Source of the DNA: Escherichia phage UE-S1 | Sequence record: ON568341.1 | Strand: one strand, 5' to 3' | Length of the DNA stretch: 64,000 nucleotides | Shown here: positions 2,102-42,931 of the stretch, piece by piece | Numbering within the stretch: the first letter of the stretch is position 1 | How the letters are laid out: each line of letters opens with the position of its first letter | Made by a program: the position numbers and the translations under genes | The notes under the pieces: generated by a model | What the model saw: the letters and a program-made list of their open reading frames with translations, nothing else | Told to the model about the DNA's origin: nothing | Database searches by the model: none

Positions 2102-3055
2102 ATGACCACACTATGGACTGAAAAATATCGCCCACAAACAATGGAAGATTATGTATCAAAGAACGATGCACTACGCCAGAAAATGGAAGAATGGATTAAA
2201 ACTGGTGATATTCCTCATATTGGTTTTTTTGGCCCAGCAGGAACTGGTAAAACATCTGCAATTAAAGTTCTTATTAATGGGTTAGTTCAAAATGGACACC
2301 TAGACCCAAGTGATGTAACGACTCTTAATATGTCAGATGAAGGTATTGATGCGGTACGTGATAAAATCGATGCAGCAGCTAAACTATCATGTTTTGGAAG
2401 ATATCGTATTTTTGTTCTTGAAGAAATGGAGCAGATGAACCATAAAGCACAAGGTAGTTTGAAACGTGTAATGGAGGATTATCATGAAAATGCTCGCTTT
2501 ATTTTAACAAGTAATGAGCCACATAAAATTCAAAAGCCTATCATTTCTCGTGTTCAAGTCATCACTATTGAAAAGCATGACATGGAACAGTTCATGACTA
2601 GAATTTACAATATCCTTCTCGCCGAAGGTGTTGACCTGAGTAGTGATGATAGTGTTGAGCAAGTCCAAAAGTACATCAATGCTTCATATCCTGATTTTCG
2701 TAAAACGTTAAACGTATTGCAAAGTTCTGTTGTTGATGGTAAGCTAGTAAAATTAGAGGATAGTATTGAAAATTCAGCGGGATACCGCACTGCAATCATT
2801 GATGCATTGAAGGCAGGTAATATTCGTCAAATGCGAGAACAGATTGTTCAATCTATTCCTGATGATGAAATGGATGCATTTTTCTCTTACTTATACCGAA
2901 ATGCTGAAATGTTCAGTACTGACGAAATCACGCTGATGAAGATTAAAGTTAAAATTCGTGATGCAGTTGTAAAGCAAGCTACAGTGTCAGATCGTGAAAT
3001 GAATCTCAGTGCTTTGTTGTGTGAGATTGACCTAATTTGTTCGGGGAACATGTAA
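2102..3055 (+). CDS. clamp-loader AAA+ ATPase (T4 gp44 / RFC-like)
   Basis: EKYRPQTMEDY, Walker A GPAGTGKTS, SRVQVI and C-terminal YPDFRKTLNVL match T4 gp44 (EQKYRPSTIDE, SPGTGKT, FPDFRKTIGEL); 317 aa. Confidence 0.85.
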   Translation: MTTLWTEKYRPQTMEDYVSKNDALRQKMEEWIKTGDIPHIGFFGPAGTGKTSAIKVLINGLVQNGHLDPSDVTTLNMSDEGIDAVRDKIDAAAKLSCFGRYRIFVLEEMEQMNHKAQGSLKRVMEDYHENARFILTSNEPHKIQKPIISRVQVITIEKHDMEQFMTRIYNILLAEGVDLSSDDSVEQVQKYINASYPDFRKTLNVLQSSVVDGKLVKLEDSIENSAGYRTAIIDALKAGNIRQMREQIVQSIPDDEMDAFFSYLYRNAEMFSTDEITLMKIKVKIRDAVVKQATVSDREMNLSALLCEIDLICSGNM

Positions 3056-3684
3056 TGAAGCCACGTTGTATTGTCTTTGATTGTGACGAAGTTCTGTTGG
3101 ATCACATGGGTATGCTTTCTGAGTTTGTAAAACAAACTTATAATATCACACCATCAACAACATACCCATTGAAATATGATTTGTCAGATTGGTTAGGTGT
3201 ATCCCAGTCTGAAGTTAAAAAAATTCTTGAACATTTTAACCAACAATCATATTTGTTTGGATTGTTAAAGCCAGTTGAACCAAATACAGTTGATATTGTT
3301 CAAGAGTTGCGTGACCGTTTTTATAATGAAAAATTTGTAGTTCTAACTAAATGTGGCAAGAAAGGATATGGTGAAGTTTTGCGTAATGTAAATCTTATGC
3401 GTGAATTTGGTGAAAACTGCTTTGATGAGATTATCATTATTGAAATGAATGAATCAAAGAAACAAGCATTAGAAGAGTTACAAAAGAAGTATGATGTGAA
3501 ATTAATGATCGACGATTACATCAATAACATTGAAACTGCAATGGAACTTGGAATCCCTTCTGTTATGATGGGTTCTTCACATAATATTATGTATAAGAAT
3601 AATAGTACTGGATTTGAATATATAGATAACTGGACCGAACTTAGACTTAAAATTTATTCCGTTCTGGGTAAATATTACAAATAA
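3055..3684 (+). CDS. HAD-superfamily phosphatase / 5'(3')-deoxyribonucleotidase-like
   Basis: HAD motif I IVFDCDEVLLD (DxDxV) at N-terminus; ATG overlaps gp44 stop (TAATG). Confidence 0.6.
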   Translation: MKPRCIVFDCDEVLLDHMGMLSEFVKQTYNITPSTTYPLKYDLSDWLGVSQSEVKKILEHFNQQSYLFGLLKPVEPNTVDIVQELRDRFYNEKFVVLTKCGKKGYGEVLRNVNLMREFGENCFDEIIIIEMNESKKQALEELQKKYDVKLMIDDYINNIETAMELGIPSVMMGSSHNIMYKNNSTGFEYIDNWTELRLKIYSVLGKYYK

Positions 3685-3696
3685 AACTTTTAAATT

Positions 3697-3722
3697 GGGG
3701 TTTGTTTCAAACCCCTTTTGTT
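3697..3722 (+). terminator. rho-independent terminator
   Basis: GGGGTTTG-ttt-CAAACCCC hairpin followed by T-run. Confidence 0.7.
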
Positions 3723-3780
3723 GTATTTTAAAAGTAGTAAATAGTATTATATGTGCTAGTTTTTAAGGATAATATAGAAT

Positions 3781-4344
3781 ATGGAAGATTTAGATTATAC
3801 AGATAATGCTATTCAGCAGTTGTATGATAATAGTGGTATGTTAGATATACTTCTTGCTGTTGAGAAATATTTCGATGATAATGATTTATATGCATATAAA
3901 GGTATCATCGAGGGAGAATTAGTTGAAGGTCCAATTGTAAGTAAATATTGGTGTACTGTTACATTTAAATACTATCGTGAAAATTTTCCAGATCCTACAG
4001 CATTCTCCATTTTGGAGAAACATGGTACTAAAGTATATGTCAAAGCTGATTATGAAATAACACCAATACAAGAACCAAATCGCCAAGCTGACATGAAAAG
4101 CGTAGCGACACAATCTGGTTCTGTGCGTATTCCAAAAAATGAAAGAATTCCAGTACTGTTGGTTAGAGTTCAAATTCCAAGAAACTTAATTAATCCAGAA
4201 AGTTTTGATGAATATAAACTTATGGCATCCGAATTTAATAGTAATCCTATGAATTCTCCCGAAAATACCGAAGAACCAGTCACTGGTGGTGATGTTGATT
4301 TGGATGTCGATGTAAATGATGATATGCAAGAAGGTGGAATGTAA
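3781..4344 (+). CDS. hypothetical acidic protein (187 aa)
   Basis: Track ORF; no motif. Confidence 0.55.
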   Translation: MEDLDYTDNAIQQLYDNSGMLDILLAVEKYFDDNDLYAYKGIIEGELVEGPIVSKYWCTVTFKYYRENFPDPTAFSILEKHGTKVYVKADYEITPIQEPNRQADMKSVATQSGSVRIPKNERIPVLLVRVQIPRNLINPESFDEYKLMASEFNSNPMNSPENTEEPVTGGDVDLDVDVNDDMQEGGM

Positions 4345-5024
4345 TGAAAAAGAAATTAAATGAACAGGGATTACGCCCACAGGTTCTTAAAGACTTGATT
4401 CATCCTATTATTAGTGTTGATGAATATACTCCTAAAATTGAGGATAGTAATATTGTTATTATGTTCCAAGTTCTAAATAATTTTGATGCCGCATACGATT
4501 TATCTTCTTTTATTGAAAAATCACCAATTGATGCAATCGATACAGAAGCAGCAGAAACTCCTAATTTGGACGGTCGATATCAAGTTTATGTTGAAATGGA
4601 ACGCAATGCGGAGTTCCCTGAAAAACTATTACGTTTAATCAAAACCATTGAAAACATTTGTCCAGACCCTGGTTGGAAAATCCAACTATATGGTGTTAAT
4701 GATCCCATTGATGTTGATTTTGACGAAATACAGCAGAGAATTGATTTAGGTATTCCGAGTACAATTAGTGAGTTTCTTGACTATGCAGGAGTTTCTGCAA
4801 TTAAAGAAGGTAATATGTTGACACTAAAAACTGCATATGGTAAATTACATTATAGTTCTGGAAGTGGGTTTGTTTCGGAAACATATGTTAAAAAGTTATT
4901 AAAAAGTGATACACAATTGGATACATCACGTCTAAGTTCTATTTTAGGTGAAAGTTATACAGTTCTACGTAGTGGTGATCAATATGTGATTGGGAGAAAT
5001 GGGAAGTATTTGGTGTTGCGATGA
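4344..5024 (+). CDS. hypothetical protein (226 aa)
   Basis: Track ORF; start overlaps upstream stop. Confidence 0.55.
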   Translation: MKKKLNEQGLRPQVLKDLIHPIISVDEYTPKIEDSNIVIMFQVLNNFDAAYDLSSFIEKSPIDAIDTEAAETPNLDGRYQVYVEMERNAEFPEKLLRLIKTIENICPDPGWKIQLYGVNDPIDVDFDEIQQRIDLGIPSTISEFLDYAGVSAIKEGNMLTLKTAYGKLHYSSGSGFVSETYVKKLLKSDTQLDTSRLSSILGESYTVLRSGDQYVIGRNGKYLVLR

Positions 5025-5839
5025 GAATTTTAAATATGCTTAAATCTCTTCACGAAACAACGAAATTACATCATGATGAAAAATATCGTCGCAGTCTTAC
5101 AAAAGATTTAGCATGTCGAATGTATATGCGTAGATTCGAAATTTCTAGAATTGGCAAAGGGTGGGACGATGTAAATCGTGAAGATATTGATCCAGATGCA
5201 ATTTTTAAAGCATACATGGCTAGAAAAGTTTTCATAAATGAAAAAACTTTTTATATTGATAGTGATAGAGAATTAGAAAATAAATTTACAAAAGGTTTAT
5301 GGAAGATATGGTGTGTTGAAGTATTCGGTGAAGTATTACCTGAGCCACCTGTTCCAGAAACTTATAAAGATTTAAAAATTATTTTTGATAATGAACATAT
5401 ACATTCAAATTTTTCATTATATGATACTGTATCAGAAGCTGTATTTTATGGTGAGTTACATGGACATAACAAATACTTTAATAGTATGGTGAGTTTTGAT
5501 TTGTTTTGTCACTTACCTGGTGTATCAAGTTGGACTTGTGATCAATACAGAGCAAGTAAGTATGATAAGCGAAAATTCTCAGCACAAAGATTTATGCAAG
5601 TTGCTATGAGTATGTACAAGCTTGATTATCTAGGTTGTCCAGAGCCATATAAACATTTTTGGAAAGAAAGAGCACAAAAATGTTTAAACTATTGTATAAT
5701 TCGTTTAATGAACACATACATTCTTAAGTTTAGAAATGCAACTGTATACGACATGCCTGAACCACCAAAGAATGAAAAATATCCTCCAGTCAAAACATTT
5801 GTATGGTACAAGGATAAAAGTAACAAAAGGATGCACTAA
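5021..5839 (+). CDS. hypothetical protein (272 aa)
   Basis: Track ORF; overlapping stop/start with upstream gene. Confidence 0.55.
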   Translation: MRILNMLKSLHETTKLHHDEKYRRSLTKDLACRMYMRRFEISRIGKGWDDVNREDIDPDAIFKAYMARKVFINEKTFYIDSDRELENKFTKGLWKIWCVEVFGEVLPEPPVPETYKDLKIIFDNEHIHSNFSLYDTVSEAVFYGELHGHNKYFNSMVSFDLFCHLPGVSSWTCDQYRASKYDKRKFSAQRFMQVAMSMYKLDYLGCPEPYKHFWKERAQKCLNYCIIRLMNTYILKFRNATVYDMPEPPKNEKYPPVKTFVWYKDKSNKRMH

Positions 5840-17636: not shown

Positions 17637-18070
17637 ATCCAAAAAAGTTTTTTGATTTATTAGGTATTACATCTATACCGGATTTAACAAGTGAAACAAA
17701 CGAATATCGTGATGTTGGAATTGTATCATTGGAATATGATACATTTGACTTTAAATGTTACATAACATATGATGTTGAAACCTATACTAAAAAATCATCA
17801 TACATTTTTGTGTTCATATATAATGATTATAGTGATAATAAACTGAATGATGTTCATATTGACACATTCGAAATATGTGGTAATATTATATCAGATGAAT
17901 CGTCATCTACATTTGATTTGGAGTTAAACAGTACTGAAGAGTCACTTTTTCAGTTGAGTACTATAAGTGACACTATATTAACACCAGATGACATTGAGAA
18001 ATTTAAAGAACATCTTGACGCAGTTCGTGAGATGTTCTATAATCATTATCCAGAAGTGGAGTTCAAATAA
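17630..18070 (+). CDS. FQxS-motif paralog family member (146 aa)
   Basis: C-terminal STEESLFQLSTISDTILT. Confidence 0.6.
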   Translation: MLNPKKFFDLLGITSIPDLTSETNEYRDVGIVSLEYDTFDFKCYITYDVETYTKKSSYIFVFIYNDYSDNKLNDVHIDTFEICGNIISDESSSTFDLELNSTEESLFQLSTISDTILTPDDIEKFKEHLDAVREMFYNHYPEVEFK

Positions 18071-18084
18071 CTAAAGGTAATAAG

Positions 18085-18345
18085 ATGACTAAAGTAGTTC
18101 GTAAACGCCATATGATGAACATGGATGAATTTCGCACATTTGACAAATATCGTACTATGTTTCGTATGCTTTCACAGGGCCGCCCAATTGTCATTGTAAC
18201 AGAGAATTACATGTCACCTGAGATTATGTTTGGTAATTATGAAAAGGTCTTCATGCTGTACGTGAAGCGTGGATTACTTACAATCAAGACATTAGCTGAA
18301 GCAACTGATGAAGATATGGATGGTGATAATACCTTTACCATGTGA
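18085..18345 (+). CDS. hypothetical protein (86 aa)
   Basis: Track ORF. Confidence 0.45.
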   Translation: MTKVVRKRHMMNMDEFRTFDKYRTMFRMLSQGRPIVIVTENYMSPEIMFGNYEKVFMLYVKRGLLTIKTLAEATDEDMDGDNTFTM

Positions 18346-18384
18346 GGAAATATATGTCTGAAAAACCAAAAGAACCTTTAGACC

Positions 18385-18675
18385 GTGATGATGATTTTTA
18401 TGACGAACGATATGGAGATGATAATGAGTGAACATAGTGCGGTGCTTAAAAAGATTTTAAAGGAAATTGATGGTGAGTTTAATGTCACAGAAGAAGAATA
18501 TCAGCATTGGAAGAAAGATTTCGAACAACTAACCGAGTATGATAAAGTGTTCAATATGATTGGTGTAATTAGCCAGTACTTACTCGGTGGAGGACGTGCA
18601 AGTGCTTCAATTCTGGCATCTGCAATCATCTGTACATCACGATGGTGTGATGAAAAAAGTTTGGAAGATTTCTAA
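18385..18675 (+). CDS. hypothetical protein (96 aa)
   Basis: Track ORF; start uncertain. Confidence 0.4.
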   Translation: MMMIFMTNDMEMIMSEHSAVLKKILKEIDGEFNVTEEEYQHWKKDFEQLTEYDKVFNMIGVISQYLLGGGRASASILASAIICTSRWCDEKSLEDF

Positions 18676-18727
18676 ATAAGATGCTATAATATATTATAGT
18701 ACCTTAACAATATAAAAAGGATTTTAT

Positions 18728-20608
18728 ATGAAACCTATCCGAGTACTATCTCTTTTTAATGGGATGAGTGTAGGATACATGGCATTAAAAGATGCTGGTA
18801 TCCCTGTTGAAAAATATTATTCATCCGAAATTGACAAATTTGCTATAGCTGAATCCCAAGCTAACTTCCCCGATATCATCCAATTGGGTGATGTAACTAG
18901 ATGGAAAGAATGGGATATCGAATGGGACAAGATAGATCTACTGATGGGTGGTTTTCCATGCTTCCCAGCAGGAACTATGATAATGACAAATAAAGGTCAT
19001 AAAGATATAAAAGATATAAAAATTGGTGATATGGTTCTTACACACACTGGACAGTACCAAAAAGTATTGAGTACTGGTGTTAAAAAGGCTCCCACTCGTA
19101 TTATTACAGGTCAAGGTCACCTTCCAATTGAATGTACCGATAATCATCCATTTTGGAGTAGGGAACGTCTAGCCAATAAATGGAATAATCAACGCCGAAG
19201 ATATGATTCTGTGTTTTCTGAACCGCAATGGGTAAATGCTATAGATCTTACTAAACAAAGTTATATTTGTAATGTTAAAAATATTACACATAATACAGTA
19301 AGTGATAAAGATGAAAAATATTGGTATTTTGTTGGTCGTTTTATGGGTGATGGATGTGCTAGTGTATCTAATAACAAATACAGTATTACTATTGTAGATT
19401 CATTAGATAAAGTTGATGAATTGAAAAAATGTTTTGATGATTTTGGATACAAATACACATTAGCTATTAAAGATAATCATGTAAGATGTGATATATATAG
19501 CAAAAAGCTTTATGATGAATTAATATGTATTGGGCATAAATCACAAAACAAATGTTTACCACCTGAAATATTCAATGAAACTATCAATAACAAAGAAGCA
19601 TTTATTAAAGGATACATGGATGCAGATGGTTGTGAGGATAAACACAATAAAAAATACAAATTTACCACCACAAGTTATAAAATAGTTCTTGGTATGCAAC
19701 AGTTAATCTTAGATACTTATCAACGTCATTGTACTATTAGTCAAACTGTTCCAAAAACAAAAAAATATATAAAAAATAAGTTGGTTAATCAGCTTCCGTA
19801 TTGGAATGTTCATTTTAGCTATAATAAAATTAAAAGAGATGATGTAATATATGATGAAATTTATATATGGAATCGTGGTGTAAAAAGTAATGTACCAACC
19901 GGAGAATGGAAAACCGTTTACAATATTGAAGTTGCAGTAGATAACACATATACGGCGAACAATATTGTAGTTCATAACTGCCAAGCGTGGTCAGTTGCAG
20001 GTAAACAGGGTGGAATAAATGATCCTCGTGGTATGTTATTCCATACAATGGTTGATATTTACCAGCACATAAAAAGTCTCAATCCAGACTTGAAAGTACT
20101 GTTCGAGAATGTTAAAATGAAAGAAGATTTCAAGCAATACATTAATAGTGTTCTTGAGATGACACCAGTACTGATAAATTCCCAGCATTATACGCCTCAC
20201 TTCAGGCAGAGATATTACTGGTACAGTACTGATAAACTTTTTATACCACCTGCATTATCAAATGCACCTAAACTTCAAGATATTATTGAAGATGGTTGGT
20301 ACACTGACAGAACCGCTTCGTACTGTATAGATGCTAACTATTTTAAGGGTGGGGATTGTAACCAGTACTTTAATAAATCAAGAAGACAAATTGTTTTCAA
20401 AGAACCTGATATCGATAGGGATTTCCTTCTTGAACATGGTAAGCGAAATGTGGACTATCGTCATTTAACAGTACAAGAGTGTTGCATGTTGCAAGGAATT
20501 GATGTAAACTACTTCAAAGTTAGTAGTTCAACACAAGCATACAAAATGCTTGGGAATGGATGGACTATGCCAGTTATATCACACTTACTACGAGATATAT
20601 TCTTTTGA
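18728..20608 (+). CDS. C5-cytosine DNA methyltransferase, intein-containing precursor (626 aa)
   Basis: Motif I SLFNGMSVG, motif IV GGFP|...|CQAWSVAGKQGG (split by intein), motif VI VLFENVK, QRYYW, C-terminal GNGWTMPV. Confidence 0.8.
   Translation: MKPIRVLSLFNGMSVGYMALKDAGIPVEKYYSSEIDKFAIAESQANFPDIIQLGDVTRWKEWDIEWDKIDLLMGGFPCFPAGTMIMTNKGHKDIKDIKIGDMVLTHTGQYQKVLSTGVKKAPTRIITGQGHLPIECTDNHPFWSRERLANKWNNQRRRYDSVFSEPQWVNAIDLTKQSYICNVKNITHNTVSDKDEKYWYFVGRFMGDGCASVSNNKYSITIVDSLDKVDELKKCFDDFGYKYTLAIKDNHVRCDIYSKKLYDELICIGHKSQNKCLPPEIFNETINNKEAFIKGYMDADGCEDKHNKKYKFTTTSYKIVLGMQQLILDTYQRHCTISQTVPKTKKYIKNKLVNQLPYWNVHFSYNKIKRDDVIYDEIYIWNRGVKSNVPTGEWKTVYNIEVAVDNTYTANNIVVHNCQAWSVAGKQGGINDPRGMLFHTMVDIYQHIKSLNPDLKVLFENVKMKEDFKQYINSVLEMTPVLINSQHYTPHFRQRYYWYSTDKLFIPPALSNAPKLQDIIEDGWYTDRTASYCIDANYFKGGDCNQYFNKSRRQIVFKEPDIDRDFLLEHGKRNVDYRHLTVQECCMLQGIDVNYFKVSSSTQAYKMLGNGWTMPVISHLLRDIFF
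18959..19978 (+). mobile_element. intein with LAGLIDADG homing-endonuclease domain (340 aa)
   Basis: Begins CFPAGTMIMT, block B CTDNHPF, LAGLIDADG motifs FVGRFMGDG and IKGYMDADG, ends VYNIEVAVDNTYTANNIVVHN, +1 Cys; excision restores GGFPCQAWS. Confidence 0.8.
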
Positions 20609-21090
20609 ACATAAACAAACACCAAACTTATATAAAACGTGCAGAAAGTTTCAAACGGCTGGCTGTAAAATCTGAATTAGAATTTAATTTGTATTATCCT
20701 AATATTGGTGATGAGGTATTTTATTGCTCACATTCAAAGAATGGAACTTTACTTAAATCGGGTAAAGGAACTATTGTTGATATGACCGCAAATTTCAGAG
20801 GTAAACTTAATGTAATGTACAAAGTGCAAGATTCAAGTACTGAGTGTATCCATGAAGTGATGCATAACATACCTGCATATCCAAAAGATTTTGTTCAGCT
20901 AATATCTCGAAGGGAGAAACCTATGTTTTATTGTGGTTACGACAAATTAACCAAACAAATTATTCCTAATACTATGGGAAAATTTAAAAGTGATGTAAAA
21001 TCTGAACTAGAAAAGAAATTTGGTACATCATGGGAAACTGAAAACGAGTTTATCGAAATTCGTTTAATTGAAGTTACTATTCTTGATTAA
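20560..21090 (+). CDS. hypothetical protein; start uncertain
   Basis: Track ORF overlapping methyltransferase 3' end by 49 nt; alternative ATG at 20782. Confidence 0.4.
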   Translation: MDYASYITLTTRYILLNINKHQTYIKRAESFKRLAVKSELEFNLYYPNIGDEVFYCSHSKNGTLLKSGKGTIVDMTANFRGKLNVMYKVQDSSTECIHEVMHNIPAYPKDFVQLISRREKPMFYCGYDKLTKQIIPNTMGKFKSDVKSELEKKFGTSWETENEFIEIRLIEVTILD

Positions 21091-29374: not shown

Positions 29375-29890
<516 letters not shown>

Positions 29891-29891
29891 A

Positions 29892-30071
29892 ATGACACAC
29901 AAAGAATGGATGTCCAAACAACATAAAGAACATGATTTCTTTGGGAATGGTATTCGTCAGGTACACTATGACATCTTAAGAGATGAAAATCTTTTCAGGT
30001 CATATGTTTTGGATACCAGAAAACCCTGGTTTATATGCGAACTGGCATTTAGAAAAACAATCAAACAATGA
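29892..30071 (+). CDS. MTHxEW mini-protein family member (59 aa)
   Basis: Own translation: MTHKEWMSKQHKEHDFFGNGIRQVHYDILRDENLFRSYVLDTRKPWFICELAFRKTIKQ. Confidence 0.5.
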   Translation: MTHKEWMSKQHKEHDFFGNGIRQVHYDILRDENLFRSYVLDTRKPWFICELAFRKTIKQ

Positions 30072-30165
30072 ATATAGAAAATTGCGTTAGTGTATCTAAA
30101 GCACTTGCATAAATGATTAATTCATTATATAATGATTATCATTGGTTCTAAATGAGGATAATATT

Positions 30166-30438
30166 ATGCATTTTGAAAAATTCAACACAAGTCGTGACAC
30201 ACGCATTGATGTTCTTTATGAAACACAAGACTCAATTAGTATTCGTACACGTAGTGGTGATGTATATCATGACTGCACTATTGGTTGGAAACAGGGAAGA
30301 ACACGTAGTGCAGAATTCGATAATTATCGCTTCTTCCAAGATGACACCACAATCTGGCCTGAAGATGTAGAAGATATTGCAATCGAAGATGAACATAAAG
30401 ATGAATTTATCAAATTTAATCCCCAAACCGAATCATAA
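30166..30438 (+). CDS. hypothetical protein (~90 aa)
   Basis: ATG 30166 after GAGGA RBS. Confidence 0.45.
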   Translation: MHFEKFNTSRDTRIDVLYETQDSISIRTRSGDVYHDCTIGWKQGRTRSAEFDNYRFFQDDTTIWPEDVEDIAIEDEHKDEFIKFNPQTES

Positions 30439-30452
30439 ATAATGGGACAGCA

Positions 30453-30571
<119 letters not shown>

Positions 30572-30575
30572 AATA

Positions 30576-30652
30576 CGGGGTATAGCACAATTGGATAGTG
30601 CAAGAGAATTCTAATCTCTAGGTTGGGGGTTCAAGTCCCTCTACCTCGGCCA
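30576..30652 (+). tRNA. tRNA-Arg (anticodon TCT)
   Basis: Acceptor CGGGGTA/TACCTCG, D-arm GCAC...GTGC, anticodon arm AGAGA-ATTCTAA-TCTCT, T-loop TTCAAGT, CCA. Confidence 0.75.
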
Positions 30653-30675
30653 ATTTTAATTAAAGGTTAAAAACC

Positions 30676-31431
<756 letters not shown>

Positions 31432-31479
31432 ATTCAGTACCAAGGAGATTAATATGTTTAAAGATGAACGTCCAGATTT

Positions 31480-31520
<41 letters not shown>

Positions 31521-31870
31521 GAATTCCACAATCAGACGTATATGGTGTAAGCTACGTCGATGCTATCCAGAACAAGATCTCTGGTACTCTAGGAAGTGGT
31601 GAATGTTAACCTAGACGGGTTTGATAATTGGACGATAGGCAATTATTACTTGACTAGCAGGTTGAAACTAGAGGTGACAGTCCTTCACCAAACTGGAAAA
31701 CCGGATGGACTTTTATTTAAAAGGGTAAGGCGTGGAAATATGTTTACAGTAGTTACTTTTAGTAGCCTGTACGCCCCACGTTAAGGTAGTCGAAAGGCAA
31801 GTTAAAACGGGTAGTTATAAAGCTGAATTAACAGCGGCGTTTAACAGCGTCACAAAATATACGCATGTTG
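31521..31870 (+). ncRNA. candidate stable/structured RNA (unclassified)
   Basis: About 350 bp downstream of a strong promoter, inside the tRNA island, relatively GC-rich, no convincing ORF. Confidence 0.3.
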
Positions 31871-32070
31871 AATGAGAGGACTAGCCATGATGTTTACTCA
31901 GGAACGATTAAACGAGATTGAGCAAGAACTCTTGAAGATTCAACATGAATTACAAGCCGTTGTTCGTCCTGTTAATTCAGATAATAACGTTTTATCAAAG
32001 TACGCACAGATCAAGCTGTTGGTCATGCACATAATACTCGTATATGGGTATAAGTACTTAAAGGTTATTT

Positions 32071-32143
32071 GGTCAGTTAGTTCAGTTGGTAGAACGCTTC
32101 ACTTCATAATGAAGAACTTACAGGTTCAAATCCAGAACTGACC
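32071..32143 (+). tRNA. non-canonical tRNA-like element (8-nt anticodon loop, weak T-stem)
   Basis: Perfect acceptor GGTCAGT/ACTGACC and D-arm GTTC-AGTTGGTA-GAAC; anticodon arm CTTCA-CTTCATAA-TGAAG; T-stem ACAGG/CCAGA mispaired. Confidence 0.4.
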
Positions 32144-32151
32144 ACAAAAAA

Positions 32152-33849
<1,698 letters not shown>

Positions 33850-34108
33850 AATATTCTCCTGAATTTGCTAAAAGTTATAATAATATTTAGTTACAATATT
33901 TATGAAATAGATTAAAAATTTGAAATGTGTTCAAAAATATTATAATAAATTTATAAAAAAAAATAAATGATTTTTTTTGAAACGGTTCAAAAAAATGTGG
34001 TATAATATATATGTTGTTCACGGAAAGATTAAGCGGGGATGCATGAGTTTGCTTAACGGAGATGATTGCAAATCCGATGTTAGTGGGTTAGAATCCCACA
34101 CTCACTGT

Positions 34109-34206
<98 letters not shown>

Positions 34207-34207
34207 C

Positions 34208-34257
<50 letters not shown>

Positions 34258-34330
34258 CTTTTTAATTTAAAAGTACTTTACTGTAGTGTTTAGTACCGTA
34301 TAATGTAAACAAAAGGATAAAATAAAACTC

Positions 34331-34855
<525 letters not shown>

Positions 34856-34878
34856 TTAAAAAAATCAGTACTTTATTA

Positions 34879-35263
<385 letters not shown>

Positions 35264-35280
35264 TTCACATGATATAGGGA

Positions 35281-35542
<262 letters not shown>

Positions 35543-35550
35543 GAATTTAA

Positions 35551-35952
35551 ATGAAAAAGAATGACTTGATCAAAATGCTTCAAGAAATTGACGGCAATCC
35601 AGAGATTGTTATTTGGAATGGATACGTCGATGATTATATGAACATCGAAAAAGGCTTGACTAAAATCACTCTAGTCAAAGAAACCGAACAGTTTCTTCAG
35701 AGTGCATTAGAGCACGAATGGTGTGAACGTAACAATACATTCGACATTCCAGAAGACCAACGAACCAAGATTGCAGAACGTGCTAAAGAACTGCATAAGA
35801 AACGCGAATACGATTTCCAGAACCCATATGTCACTGAAGACGAATTCAATCGCTGGTACGGTAAAAAGAAATTGACAAAGTATGTCCTTTCACCTAAACT
35901 ACGTGGTAAGACTTCACTTGGTGTATTCAACGCCGCAGACTTAAACTACTAG
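35551..35952 (+). CDS. hypothetical protein (133 aa); paralog of 35965
   Basis: N-terminus MKKNDLIKMLQEIDGNPEIVIWNGYVDDY. Confidence 0.5.
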   Translation: MKKNDLIKMLQEIDGNPEIVIWNGYVDDYMNIEKGLTKITLVKETEQFLQSALEHEWCERNNTFDIPEDQRTKIAERAKELHKKREYDFQNPYVTEDEFNRWYGKKKLTKYVLSPKLRGKTSLGVFNAADLNY

Positions 35953-35961
35953 CGGGTATTA

Positions 35962-36229
<268 letters not shown>

Positions 36230-36273
36230 GATTCCCGATTCAGTAGTTTTAAAGCTGACCCGTATGTGCCTAT

Positions 36274-36373
<100 letters not shown>

Positions 36374-36374
36374 T

Positions 36375-36508
<134 letters not shown>

Positions 36509-36510
36509 TA

Positions 36511-36592
<82 letters not shown>

Positions 36593-36593
36593 G

Positions 36594-36626
<33 letters not shown>

Positions 36627-36631
36627 GTGCT

Positions 36632-36753
<122 letters not shown>

Positions 36754-36774
36754 TATCTTACTTTTAAACAAACT

Positions 36775-36848
36775 GCCTCAATAGCAAAATTGGTAATGCA
36801 CACGATTTGTAATCGTGAGATTTTTCCGTTCGAGTCGGAATTGGGGCA
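36775..36848 (+). tRNA. tRNA-Thr (anticodon TGT)
   Basis: Acceptor GCCTCAA/TTGGGGC, anticodon arm CACGA-TTTGTAA-TCGTG, T-arm TTCCG-TTCGAGT-CGGAA. Confidence 0.75.
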
Positions 36849-36864
36849 CAAATAAAGGCACATT

Positions 36865-41776: not shown

Positions 41777-42931
41777 TTATTCGTTATAGCCAACAATAAC
41801 TACTGAGCAGTCAAGTGGTTCACCAACTTTTACAATTACGTTATCATCTTCATCAACTTGTAAATCACTATGAATTACCTGTTTATCAGAAGAATACAAT
41901 TGAACTTGTGGAAGTGCTTTACCATGTTCAGTTGCAGGAATGGATAGAGAATACATTGAGTCTTCATCATGTTTCCAATCACTTAACGCATATTCCTTGT
42001 GGAACGGTGTAGTATGTAGAGTTTTACCCATAATACGTAAAGATATAGGAGAATTATCAGTTTGTTGTACTGTAATATTACCTTTATCATCAACTGACAT
42101 ATCAACGCCTATTTGATGGGAATCCCCATTATATGTTTGGAGAACCAATTTATGTCCACGTTTATGAACATCATATGGTACTACAGCAGAGAATGCACCA
42201 TCAGGTGATGGTTGAAAATCTGACAAGTGAACAGGTGTAACAAAATCTACATCTTCACCATGTTCCTGAACATCAAACTCAACAACTTTAGTATTATAAT
42301 ATGGAGAAGTTAGGGTAGCAGTACCTTTTCCTTTTTGTGTAATTGCATCAACTTGGATTGTAAATGTATCACCAGCAAATTGAGTAGTAGTGTATTCTGT
42401 TCCTTCAGGTAAAACAATTTTGATTTCCATTGAATTGGTATCAATTTCGGAACCAGCATTGAATAACTTACCACTAATTGATTTGTCACCAACAAATACA
42501 GGTGAAATAATAATATTATCTATATCACGATCAATAATACTACATTCAGGTGTGTACATATTGTAAAGAGTTTTTGAACTTCCTAATATTGTTTTATGTA
42601 ATAGGAATTTATATACAAAGCCAGTATCAGCCTCTTGATGGTCATCCGAATGTCCACGAACAAAGAAACTATTTTTATTAATTTCACTTAATAGTTCGTC
42701 AGTTGATTTACTATAATTTAATAGATAACCTTTATTATCTTTTGTTGTTAATTGGACTTTACGATAGATTATATTAGTTCTAGGATCAACTAAATCATAT
42801 AATTTATGACTTCTCTGACGATAGATTCTAATATTTTTTAGTTTAGATCCGTCATTAAGAATCGCACCATCAACGATATAACCACATTCACCAAACTTAT
42901 ATCTTCCAGCCGCTGCAATTGATCTTGACAT
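41777..42931 (-). CDS. hypothetical protein (384 aa)
   Basis: ATG with GGAGGAATAA RBS on minus strand; convergent with upstream + gene. Confidence 0.65.
   Translation of the reverse strand: MSRSIAAAGRYKFGECGYIVDGAILNDGSKLKNIRIYRQRSHKLYDLVDPRTNIIYRKVQLTTKDNKGYLLNYSKSTDELLSEINKNSFFVRGHSDDHQEADTGFVYKFLLHKTILGSSKTLYNMYTPECSIIDRDIDNIIISPVFVGDKSISGKLFNAGSEIDTNSMEIKIVLPEGTEYTTTQFAGDTFTIQVDAITQKGKGTATLTSPYYNTKVVEFDVQEHGEDVDFVTPVHLSDFQPSPDGAFSAVVPYDVHKRGHKLVLQTYNGDSHQIGVDMSVDDKGNITVQQTDNSPISLRIMGKTLHTTPFHKEYALSDWKHDEDSMYSLSIPATEHGKALPQVQLYSSDKQVIHSDLQVDEDDNVIVKVGEPLDCSVVIVGYNE

What the first reader, a model, noticed from the sequence alone, without database searches (positions are those of the whole stretch)
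18728..20608. LAGLIDADG intein inserted at the catalytic PCQ motif of a phage C5-cytosine DNA methyltransferase
The 626-aa ORF reads ...DLLMGGFP-[CFPAGTMIMT ... 340 aa ... NNIVVHN]-CQAWSVAGKQGG.... Removing nt 18959-19978 restores the canonical C5-methyltransferase motif IV GGFPCQ with the catalytic Cys as the +1 residue. The insert has intein block A (C-x-x-x-G-T-x-I), block B (CTDNHPF), two LAGLIDADG motifs (FVGRFMGDG, IKGYMDADG), a terminal block (VYNIEVAVDNTYTANNIVVHN) and a downstream Cys. The extein carries motif I (LFNGMSVG), ENV (VLFENVK), QRYYW and GNGWTMPV. Methyltransferase activity would therefore depend on protein splicing.
Basis: partly seen in the sequence, partly recalled or inferred. 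Interest (0 to 1): 0.8.

Follow-up and report, generated by a model that had tools for sequence, protein, structure and literature searches.

The report
Intein splitting a phage cytosine methyltransferase
A jumbo E. coli phage carries a self-splicing, mobile protein insert (an intein with its own homing endonuclease) exactly at the catalytic cysteine of its DNA cytosine methyltransferase; this is a real, well-formed but fairly ordinary selfish element, and related copies occupy the same spot in many other phage methyltransferases.

Summary
Window 18728..20608 (+) is one intact 626-aa ORF. Residues 78-417 (nt 18959-19978, 340 aa) interrupt C5-methyltransferase motif IV between Pro and the catalytic Cys.

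Phage 121Q encodes a 286-aa homolog that lacks exactly these 340 residues (GGFP|CQ). The insert matches Hint and LAGLIDADG Pfam models. It folds with pLDDT 93.5 into a structure whose best PDB matches are the intein endonucleases PI-SceI, TliVMA and PI-PfuI. It keeps Cys1, block B TxxH, terminal His-Asn, Cys+1 and both catalytic Asp residues of the LAGLIDADG motifs.

The window is an Asteriusvirus (121Q-like jumbo coliphage). Only 4 of 36 related phage records carry the intein. Flanking sequences are mosaic, and the endonuclease is under purifying selection in the sister variant. Together these fit active or recent homing.

Related inteins (25-34% identity) sit at the same P|C…N|CQ junction in other places:
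- C5-methyltransferases of Lactobacillus, Propionibacterium, Mannheimia and EBPR phages;
- the dmt gene of the P1-like phage RCS47, and probably about 127 P1-like plasmids whose junctions I did not inspect;
- many metagenomic proteins.

None of these is annotated as an intein, and I found no paper describing it. Splicing and homing were not tested here.

Verdict: a new member of a known kind, of modest interest.

The parts
18728..20608 (+). Complete precursor gene: C5-cytosine DNA methyltransferase interrupted by an intein (626 aa plus stop). An AAGGA Shine-Dalgarno-like sequence lies 8 nt upstream of the ATG.
   Evidence: It is 99.2% identical to the ph0011 CDS WAE77301.1, annotated 'DNA cytosine methyltransferase'.
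18728..18958 (+). N-extein (aa 1-77): methyltransferase motif I (LFNGMSVG, nt 18752-18775) up to the GGFP of motif IV.
   Evidence: Pfam DNA_methylase stretch 4-79; alignment with 121Q gp91.
18959..19978 (+). Intein (aa 78-417, 340 aa): Hint splicing domain split around a LAGLIDADG homing endonuclease. GC content is 29.7%, against 36.8% for the exteins.
18959..19153 (+). Intein N-terminal splicing region with Cys1 (block A, CFPAGTMIMT) and block B T60-x-x-H63 (ECTDNHPF, nt 19130-19153).
   Evidence: Hint_2 match covers residues 77-134. C1 is invariant, and T60 and H63 are at least 90% conserved across 26 related inteins.
19328..19354 (+). First LAGLIDADG motif, FVGRFMGDG. The acidic residue at position 8 is kept. 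It lies at the end of predicted helix 119-131 (intein numbering).
19604..19630 (+). Second LAGLIDADG motif, IKGYMDADG. The acidic residue at position 8 is kept. It lies at the end of predicted helix 209-223.
   Evidence: Pfam LAGLIDADG_3 best stretch 289-330.
19916..19978 (+). Intein C-terminal splicing region (blocks F and G): VYNIEVAVDNTYTANNIVVHN, ending in His339-Asn340.
   Evidence: N340 is invariant in 26 related inteins; the Intein_splicing match reaches residue 417.
19979..20605 (+). C-extein (aa 418-626). It starts with Cys418, which is both the +1 splicing nucleophile and the catalytic Cys of motif IV (PCQ). It also carries ENV (nt 20099-20116), QRYYW (nt 20207-20221) and GNGWTMPV (nt 20552-20575).

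Best explanation
The gene encodes a precursor in which a full-length class 1 intein sits between Pro77 and the catalytic Cys of motif IV (GGFP|CQ) of a compact, DNMT3-like phage C5-cytosine DNA methyltransferase. The intein is a Hint splicing domain carrying a two-motif LAGLIDADG homing endonuclease.

Proposed mechanism (inferred, not shown):
1. After translation, Cys78 (intein Cys1) undergoes an N-S acyl shift.
2. Cys418 (+1) attacks the resulting thioester.
3. Asn417 cyclises, assisted by His416, and releases the 39.6-kDa intein.
4. An S-N shift joins Pro77 to Cys418. This recreates the PCQ catalytic loop in a 33.4-kDa, 286-aa methyltransferase.

Before splicing, a 40-kDa domain sits at the catalytic loop next to the nucleophile, so the precursor should be inactive.

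The released intein is expected to cut the uninterrupted GGFP-CQAWSV coding sequence of intein-free Asteriusvirus genomes during co-infection. Repair from the intein-bearing allele would then copy in the intein together with flanking extein sequence (homing).

Shown here: the domain architecture, the exact boundaries, conservation of all splicing and nuclease residues, the existence of empty-site alleles, a patchy distribution, mosaic flanks, and purifying selection. Inferred: splicing, nuclease activity, homing, and the dependence of methylation on splicing.
For: 1. The ORF is intact, and the boundaries are exact when compared with the intein-free 286-aa alleles of 121Q and Turkey3.
2. Pfam Hint_2, LAGLIDADG_3 and DNA_methylase all score above their gathering cut-offs.
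3. The dcm model TIGR00675 passes its cut-off only after the insert is removed.
4. The AlphaFold model has pLDDT 93.5 and pTM 0.90. Its top Foldseek PDB matches are all intein endonucleases: PI-SceI 4e-18, TliVMA intein 5.7e-18 with TM 0.75, PhoVMA, PI-PfuI and PI-TkoII, followed by I-DmoI.
5. In an alignment of 26 related inteins, Cys1 and Asn340 are invariant, and T60 and H63 of block B are at least 90% conserved.
6. Distribution is patchy. Only ph0011, A4, TH47 and JNE01, out of 36 Asteriusvirus-type records with the methyltransferase gene, contain the intein.
7. There are recombination signatures. The TH47 C-extein is 94.7% identical to the window for about 300-400 nt next to the intein and then switches to the 121Q type (96%). 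Window versus ph0011 is 93-100% identical only from about 17.8 to 20.6 kb, and 59-80% immediately outside that block.
8. There is purifying selection. Splicing regions give dN/dS 0.04-0.12 despite saturated dS. The endonuclease region gives dN/dS 0.09-0.12 among A4, TH47 and JNE01.
9. Related inteins occupy the identical P|C...N|CQ junction in unrelated C5-methyltransferases. These include endonuclease-less mini-inteins of 140-154 aa and copies with a degraded endonuclease, that is, the stages expected of the homing cycle.
Against: - There are no experimental data on splicing, cleavage or methylation.
- Block F position 4, which is Asp in many class 1 inteins, is Asn322 here. The block F His position is Asn329 (DNTY rather than the DH(T/S)Y of many relatives). 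Splicing efficiency therefore cannot be assumed.
- For the window's own intein variant, selection on the endonuclease cannot be assessed. The only close relative, ph0011, differs by 1 nonsynonymous and 5 synonymous changes.
- Mosaic identity is common throughout this genome region. The high-identity block around the gene is suggestive of homing but does not prove it.
Confidence: 0.9

Rival explanations
1. It is a decayed or splicing-dead intein remnant. The insert was once an intein but no longer splices, so the methyltransferase gene is in effect a pseudogene. This would be tolerable because orphan phage methyltransferases are dispensable.
For: - Asn replaces the common Asp at block F position 4, and Asn replaces His at the block F His position.
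- The methyltransferase is an accessory gene in a region full of small accessory ORFs.
- The Mannheimia phage 587AP2 allele is broken right after its intein, so broken alleles do exist.
Against: - The frame is open over 626 codons in 33% GC DNA, with a chance probability of about 1e-14 for the insert alone.
- All four essential splicing residues and both nuclease Asp residues are retained.
- Both exteins are under strong purifying selection in the intein-bearing alleles (dN/dS 0.02-0.18). An inactivated methyltransferase would not be expected to show this.
- Asn322 is nearly invariant across the whole intein family, including members under selection.
Confidence: 0.07
2. The insert is a normal lineage-specific domain of the methyltransferase, for example a DNA-binding or target-recognition insertion or a bacterial intein-like (BIL) Hint domain. 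It stays in the mature enzyme and is not excised.
For: The gene is annotated in GenBank simply as 'DNA cytosine methyltransferase' with no intein feature.
Against: - Most close homologs lack it exactly.
- It separates Pro from the catalytic Cys of the invariant PCQ motif.
- It has the full nucleophile set of a canonical intein (C1, TxxH, HN, C+1), which BIL domains usually lack.
- Its fold matches PI-SceI-type inteins.
- Mini-intein versions at the same junction make a functional role in methylation implausible.
Confidence: 0.02
3. The intein splices but is a stranded element whose endonuclease is inactive, so it is inherited only vertically or by ordinary recombination (the late stage of the homing cycle).
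For: - Selection on the window variant's endonuclease could not be measured.
- Relatives with degraded endonucleases (P0001, P0010) and mini-inteins exist.
- The endonuclease core differs strongly (20-60% identity) between the two Asteriusvirus variants, while the splicing domains are at least 85% identical.
Against: - Both LAGLIDADG motifs keep the catalytic Asp, and the domain is modelled with high confidence.
- The sister variant's endonuclease shows dN/dS of about 0.1.
- Distribution is patchy, and there is a near-identical 2.8-kb block shared with ph0011 in an otherwise 60-90% identical context.
Confidence: 0.25

Closest known systems
PI-SceI (S. cerevisiae VMA1 intein) and the archaeal TliVMA, PhoVMA and PI-PfuI inteins
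   Same: The architecture is the same: a Hint splicing domain interrupted by a two-motif LAGLIDADG endonuclease, with a Cys1 ... His-Asn / Cys+1 nucleophile set. These are the best structural matches (E 4e-18 to 1.6e-11, TM up to 0.75).
   Different: Sequence identity is only 12-17%, and the host protein is different (V-ATPase or RNR rather than a C5-methyltransferase). At 340 aa this intein is smaller than PI-SceI (454 aa).
Mycobacteriophage and actinophage DNA-methylase inteins (DNMT-1/DNMT-2 of Kelley et al. 2016, PMC5050341; Dorothy_75-type methylase intein of Gosselin et al. 2023, PMC9957025)
   Same: An orphan phage DNA methyltransferase is invaded by a LAGLIDADG intein, with a patchy distribution and within-gene recombination. 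The window's intein aligns over its full length with these at about 24% identity (E about 1e-21).
   Different: In Kelley et al. the host enzymes are N6_N4_Mtase (N-4/N-6) methylases, not C5 (PF00145). The insertion site and catalytic chemistry therefore differ. Here the +1 residue is the methyltransferase's own catalytic cysteine.
Unannotated inteins at the same motif IV site in other C5-methyltransferases: Lactobacillus phage Nyseid, Propionibacterium phage B22 gp50, EBPR siphovirus 2 gp44, Mannheimia phage 587AP2, Dmt of P1-like phage RCS47, and about 25 metagenomic proteins
   Same: The junction is identical, xxP|C(F/S)xxG(T/H)... (H/F/Y)N|C(Q/K/T). The intein family is the same at 25-34% identity. 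About 127 Escherichia, Salmonella and Shigella plasmids carry a homolog under genes annotated 'Dam family ... methyltransferase'; I did not inspect their junctions.
   Different: The extein lineages differ: long multi-domain methyltransferases of 700-1095 aa, against a 286-aa DNMT3-like enzyme here. Some copies lack the endonuclease or the penultimate His. None of them is in a jumbo phage.
Inteins in phage ribonucleotide reductases and thymidylate synthase (Lactococcus phage 949 NrdD; Aeromonas phage PS1 thymidylate synthase)
   Same: These are the nearest relatives outside methyltransferases (28-30% identity over the full length). They also sit in nucleotide-metabolism enzymes of large phages.
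   Different: The host genes and insertion sites are different.

Membership tests
Class 1 intein | Hint (Hedgehog/intein) fold formed by the N- and C-terminal parts of the insert | tested here: met
   Pfam Hint_2 3.8e-8, above gathering. The AlphaFold model has pLDDT 93.5. Foldseek top hits are intein structures.
Class 1 intein | N-terminal nucleophile (Cys or Ser at position 1) | tested here: met
   Cys78, the first intein residue, is invariant in 26 related inteins.
Class 1 intein | Block B Thr-x-x-His | tested here: met
   T60-D-N-H63 within ECTDNHPF; both residues are at least 90% conserved.
Class 1 intein | C-terminal Asn, usually preceded by His, followed by a Cys/Ser/Thr +1 residue in the C-extein | tested here: met
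   ...VVHN|CQ. Asn340 is invariant, and Cys418 is the +1 residue.
Class 1 intein | In-frame insertion in a conserved host protein, with homologs that lack it precisely | tested here: met
   121Q gp91 and Turkey3 (both 286 aa) show an exact 340-aa gap at GGFP|CQ.
Class 1 intein | Block F conserved Asp (F:4) and His | tested here: not met
   The sequence has VYN322IEV and DN329TY. Asn322 is nearly invariant in this intein family, while many relatives have His at the second position. That these two positions are typical but not obligatory for class 1 inteins is from my own knowledge of intein motifs, not from a test here.
Class 1 intein | Demonstrated protein splicing | not testable with these tools
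   This needs expression and detection of the 33-kDa and 40-kDa products.
LAGLIDADG homing endonuclease (two-motif, monomeric) | Two LAGLIDADG helices, each ending in a catalytic acidic residue | tested here: met
   FVGRFMGD131G and IKGYMDAD223G, at the ends of predicted helices 119-131 and 209-223. Pfam LAGLIDADG_3 3.4e-10.
LAGLIDADG homing endonuclease (two-motif, monomeric) | Alpha-beta-beta-alpha-beta-beta-alpha core fold | tested here: met
   Foldseek matches to I-DmoI (E about 2e-7, TMt 0.54-0.64) and to the endonuclease domains of PI-SceI and PI-PfuI.
LAGLIDADG homing endonuclease (two-motif, monomeric) | Site-specific cleavage of the empty allele, and homing | not testable with these tools
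   Only indirect evidence is available: 4 of 36 records carry the intein, the flanks are mosaic, and the sister variant has dN/dS of about 0.1.
C5-cytosine DNA methyltransferase (Pfam PF00145 / TIGR00675 dcm) | Motifs I (FxGxG), IV (PCQ), VI (ENV), VIII (QxRxR-like) and X (GNG/GNS) in order, and a profile score above the cut-off | tested here: met
   The spliced sequence scores 114.9 bits on TIGR00675 against a cut-off of 100.65; the precursor scores 95.3. PF00145 gives 8.4e-29. The sequence aligns over its full length with the DNMT3B catalytic domain, residues 2-282, E 5e-24.
C5-cytosine DNA methyltransferase (Pfam PF00145 / TIGR00675 dcm) | m5C-forming activity and sequence specificity | not testable with these tools
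   This needs methylome sequencing of the phage DNA or an in vitro assay.

The most novel reading that the evidence does not exclude
The motif IV (P|C-Q) intein of C5-methyltransferases may be a widespread intein insertion type that has not been described. It is found in jumbo coliphages, lactic-acid-bacteria and actinobacterial phages and the P1-like phage RCS47, with homologs under the methyltransferase genes of more than 100 P1-like plasmids. Because the +1 splicing nucleophile is the enzyme's own catalytic cysteine, splicing could act as a conditional switch, for example redox- or timing-dependent. Such a switch would delay or gate phage DNA methylation during infection rather than being a neutral parasite.
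Probability: 0.1. Interest if true: 0.6.

Novelty: new member of a known kind. Interest (0 to 1): 0.33.

Why it matters
For annotation: the gene, its homologs in ph0011, A4 and JNE01, the same-site alleles in Nyseid, B22 and RCS47 dmt, and probably the dmt genes of about 127 P1-like plasmids are deposited as plain methyltransferases or hypothetical proteins. Their length and domain content are therefore misread, and the mature enzyme is 286 aa, not 626 aa.

For intein biology: it adds a host-protein type, C5-methyltransferase motif IV, that I could not find in the searchable literature. It comes with a natural series of empty sites, two endonuclease variants that share splicing domains, degraded endonucleases and mini-inteins. 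That series is convenient for studying the homing cycle in culturable coliphages.

For tools: it offers Cys1/Cys+1 inteins with a GGFP/CQ junction and a new LAGLIDADG specificity.

It does not change any concept. Inteins at catalytic residues of phage DNA-metabolism enzymes are the rule.

Tried and rejected
1. Ten literature searches combined 'intein' with cytosine methyltransferase, C-5 cytosine, cytosine-5, dcm, dmt/P1, Asteriusvirus, 121Q, DNA methylase plus catalytic cysteine, and actinophage methylase. I also read the candidate papers.
   - Only N4/N6-type or unspecified phage methylase inteins are described (PMC5050341, PMC9957025).
   - Novikova et al. 2016 (PMC4760082) does not mention methylases in its main text.
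   - The absence of a paper is weak evidence, because subscription journals and InBase are not searchable here.
2. A sequence search of the intein against PDB chains found only a marginal gp41-1 mini-intein match (E 3e-4). The fold search was needed to place it.
3. The search for homologous proteins did not return the window protein or ph0011 itself, presumably because of its word-index sensitivity or coverage. It still gave 31 relatives.
4. I considered a group I intron or free-standing homing endonuclease gene and rejected it. The reading frame is continuous and the insert has Hint termini.
5. I considered a sequencing or assembly chimera and rejected it. The same structure occurs in four independently sequenced phages.
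6. I looked for other inteins among the long ORFs of the window and found none.
Full report
**1. Observation**

Window 18728..20608 (+) is a single 626-codon ORF starting at an ATG preceded by AAGGA.

Residues 78-417 (nt 18959-19978, 340 aa) begin with CFPAGTMIMT and end with NNIVVHN, followed by CQAWSVAG. Removing them joins ...LLMGGFP to CQAWSVAGKQGG, which gives a 286-aa protein of 33.4 kDa. The insert is 39.6 kDa and the precursor 73.0 kDa. The insert has 29.7% GC, against 36.8% for the exteins. An open frame of 340 codons in DNA of this composition has a probability of about 1e-14.

**2. What the parts are**

- Pfam finds DNA_methylase (8.4e-29, in separate stretches), LAGLIDADG_3 (3.4e-10) and Hint_2 (3.8e-8), all above their gathering scores. 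Weaker Intein_splicing, Hom_end_hint and Hom_end matches also appear.
- NCBIfam TIGR00675 (dcm) scores 95.3 bits for the precursor, below its 100.65 cut-off, and 114.9 bits for the spliced sequence.
- I built an alignment of 26 related inteins. In it Cys1 and the terminal Asn are invariant, and the block B Thr and His are at least 90% conserved.
- AlphaFold2 on that alignment gave a model with mean pLDDT 93.5 and pTM 0.90.
- The best Foldseek matches in the PDB are all intein homing endonucleases: PI-SceI 4e-18, TliVMA intein 5.7e-18 with TM 0.75, PhoVMA, PI-PfuI and PI-TkoII. The stand-alone LAGLIDADG enzyme I-DmoI follows.
- Both LAGLIDADG motifs, FVGRFMGDG and IKGYMDADG, lie at the C-terminal ends of predicted helices and keep the catalytic Asp.
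- The spliced extein aligns over its full length with the catalytic domains of DNMT3A and DNMT3B (E about 3e-24 to 5e-24), ahead of M.HhaI and M.HaeIII.

**3. Genomic setting and empty-site alleles**

The window is an Asteriusvirus, a 121Q/PBECO4-like jumbo coliphage. The gene is 99.2% identical to Escherichia phage ph0011 (OP557969), where it is annotated only as 'DNA cytosine methyltransferase'.

Megablast found the methyltransferase gene in 36 phage records. The intein is present in only four of them: ph0011, A4, TH47 and JNE01. In 121Q and about twenty other listed records the match spans exactly 861 nt, the length of the joined exteins. The 121Q and Turkey3 genes, which I examined directly, encode 286 aa.

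The protein alignment shows a gap of exactly the proposed 340 residues in 121Q gp91, between GGFP and CQ.

**4. Signs of mobility**

A4, TH47 and JNE01 carry a second variant of the intein.
- Its first ~65 residues are at least 85% identical to the window's, and its last ~25 residues are 95-100% identical.
- Its endonuclease core is only 20-60% identical.

The extein flanks are mosaic.
- The TH47 C-extein is 94.7% identical to the window for the 300 nt next to the intein. From about 400 nt downstream it is instead 96% identical to the intein-free 121Q and Turkey3 alleles.
- The window and ph0011 are 93-100% identical only from about 17.8 to 20.6 kb. Identity falls to 59-80% immediately on either side of that block.

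Selection is purifying.
- Nei-Gojobori estimates give dN/dS of 0.04-0.12 for the splicing regions, despite saturated synonymous divergence.
- The endonuclease region gives 0.09-0.12 among A4, TH47 and JNE01.
- The exteins of intein-bearing alleles give 0.02-0.18.

These patterns are what homing with co-conversion predicts. However, mosaicism is common across this genome region, so they are supportive and not decisive. For the window's own variant there is too little divergence from ph0011 to measure selection.

**5. The same site elsewhere**

tblastn of the intein against phage genomes found 66 records. Outside the Asteriusvirus group, the best hits include inteins in genes annotated as cytosine or DNA methyltransferases. 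I translated these genes, and the junction is the same in all of them:

| Phage | Junction |
|---|---|
| Lactobacillus phage Nyseid | FGFP\|CSPAG...IIVHN\|CQD |
| Propionibacterium phage B22 | GGSP\|CFVAG...IVVHN\|CQD |
| EBPR siphovirus 2 | GSCP\|CFPAG...IVVHN\|CQP |
| Mannheimia phage 587AP2 | GGTP\|CFTAG...AVVHN\|CQS (reading frame broken just after) |
| P1-like phage RCS47, dmt | GGTP\|CFTAG...AVVHN\|CQA |

A search of about 5.8 billion proteins gave 31 relatives. Most carry PF00145 together with Hint domains. Of the 31, 22 show the same P|C...N|C junction by pattern matching. They include mini-inteins of 140-154 aa, copies with degraded endonucleases of 214-267 aa, and copies with Phe or Tyr in place of the penultimate His.

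In the plasmid collection, 131 records match the intein. Of these, 127 are from Escherichia, Salmonella or Shigella, and every listed Escherichia or Salmonella hit lies under a gene annotated 'Dam family site-specific DNA-(adenine-N6)-methyltransferase'. I infer that this is the fused dmt gene of P1-like plasmids; I did not inspect those junctions.

The motif IV site of C5-methyltransferases is therefore a recurrent intein home in public data, although none of the records I inspected annotates it.

**6. Literature**

Ten full-text searches and the papers I read turned up inteins in phage methylases only for mycobacteriophages and actinophages. In Kelley et al. 2016 (PMC5050341) the hosts are N6_N4 methylases. 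Gosselin et al. 2023 (PMC9957025) does not state the methylase class in the passages I read. No paper describing an intein in a C5-methyltransferase or in Asteriusvirus was found. The CBB paper notes only terminase inteins in Rak2-like phages. The library lacks many subscription journals and InBase, so this absence is weak evidence.

**7. Mechanism**

The residue set is Cys1, TxxH, His-Asn and Cys+1, which is that of a class 1 intein. From established intein chemistry the steps are:
1. an N-S acyl shift at Cys78;
2. trans-thioesterification by Cys418;
3. cyclisation of Asn417;
4. an S-N shift that joins Pro77 to Cys418.

Cys418 is also the nucleophile that C5-methyltransferases use to attack cytosine C6. 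It lies on the mobile catalytic loop of motif IV. A 40-kDa domain inserted there should prevent catalysis until it is removed. Both points are inference.

Two block F positions that are often Asp and His are Asn here (Asn322 and Asn329). Asn322 is nearly invariant in this intein family, so I regard it as a family trait and not as decay. Even so, splicing efficiency is unknown.

**8. Verdict**

It is a new, unannotated member of a well-known kind of element, sitting at an insertion site that many other phage C5-methyltransferases share. Interest is modest. It is useful for annotation, as a tractable homing system in coliphages, and as a source of new intein and LAGLIDADG parts, but it is not conceptually surprising.

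Noticed in passing
window 18728-18958 plus 19979-20605 (spliced extein): The 286-aa mature methyltransferase is most similar in sequence to the catalytic domains of mammalian DNMT3A and DNMT3B (E about 3e-24, full-length alignment including KPIRVLSLF(N/D)G). It is less similar to the bacterial M.HhaI and M.HaeIII (E about 5e-17). This makes it a compact DNMT3-like phage enzyme of unknown specificity.
   Followed up: partly
window about 17800-20600 versus ph0011 (L012): Identity to ph0011 is 93-100% only in a roughly 2.8-kb block covering the intein-bearing gene and about 900 nt upstream. It drops to 59-80% on both sides. The rest of the 64-kb window is only 82-97% identical to ph0011 and has several indels.
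   Followed up: partly
window 32152-33849 (-) and 41777-42931 (-): Two long minus-strand ORFs (565 and 384 aa) have no Pfam match. They lie in segments that do not align with ph0011, inside a region where the long ORFs of the window and the ph0011 gene annotations otherwise all lie on the plus strand. They could be insertions or mobile elements.
   Followed up: partly
window 29577-36849: ARAGORN calls a cluster of eight tRNA genes. One has a four-base anticodon (tcat, 32071-32145), directly beside the 565-aa minus-strand ORF. Another is a tRNA-Ser with anticodon ACT (34918-35009).
   Followed up: no
L008 (Escherichia phage RCS47 dmt, 2270-5557) and 127 Escherichia/Salmonella/Shigella plasmids: The fused Dam/Dcm gene dmt of RCS47 carries a 341-aa LAGLIDADG intein at the PCQ motif of its C5 domain (GGTP|C...HN|CQ). 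Homologs are present in about 127 plasmid records under genes annotated only as a Dam family methyltransferase; I did not inspect their junctions.
   Followed up: partly
L007 (Mannheimia phage vB_MhS_587AP2, 1264-3100): This phage's C5-methyltransferase has an intein at the same site, but the reading frame breaks a few codons after HN|CQS. The gene is annotated as two overlapping CDSs ('hypothetical protein' and 'cytosine-specific DNA methyltransferase'). This is either a decayed allele or a sequencing frameshift.
   Followed up: no
window 20560-21090 (+): The downstream ORF (176 aa, phrog_28599, unknown function) overlaps the 3' end of the methyltransferase gene by 49 nt in the window and in ph0011. 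In 121Q the homologous gp92 overlaps by only 4 nt.
   Followed up: no
P0001 (metagenomic protein, 551 aa): This is a close relative of the Asteriusvirus methyltransferase. Its N-extein opens MKPIKVLSLFDGMSG, against MKPIRVLSLFNGMSV in the window, and it has the same GGFP|CFPGG junction. It carries a 264-aa intein whose endonuclease region has no recognisable LAGLIDADG motifs, which looks like a degenerating copy of the same intein lineage.
   Followed up: no
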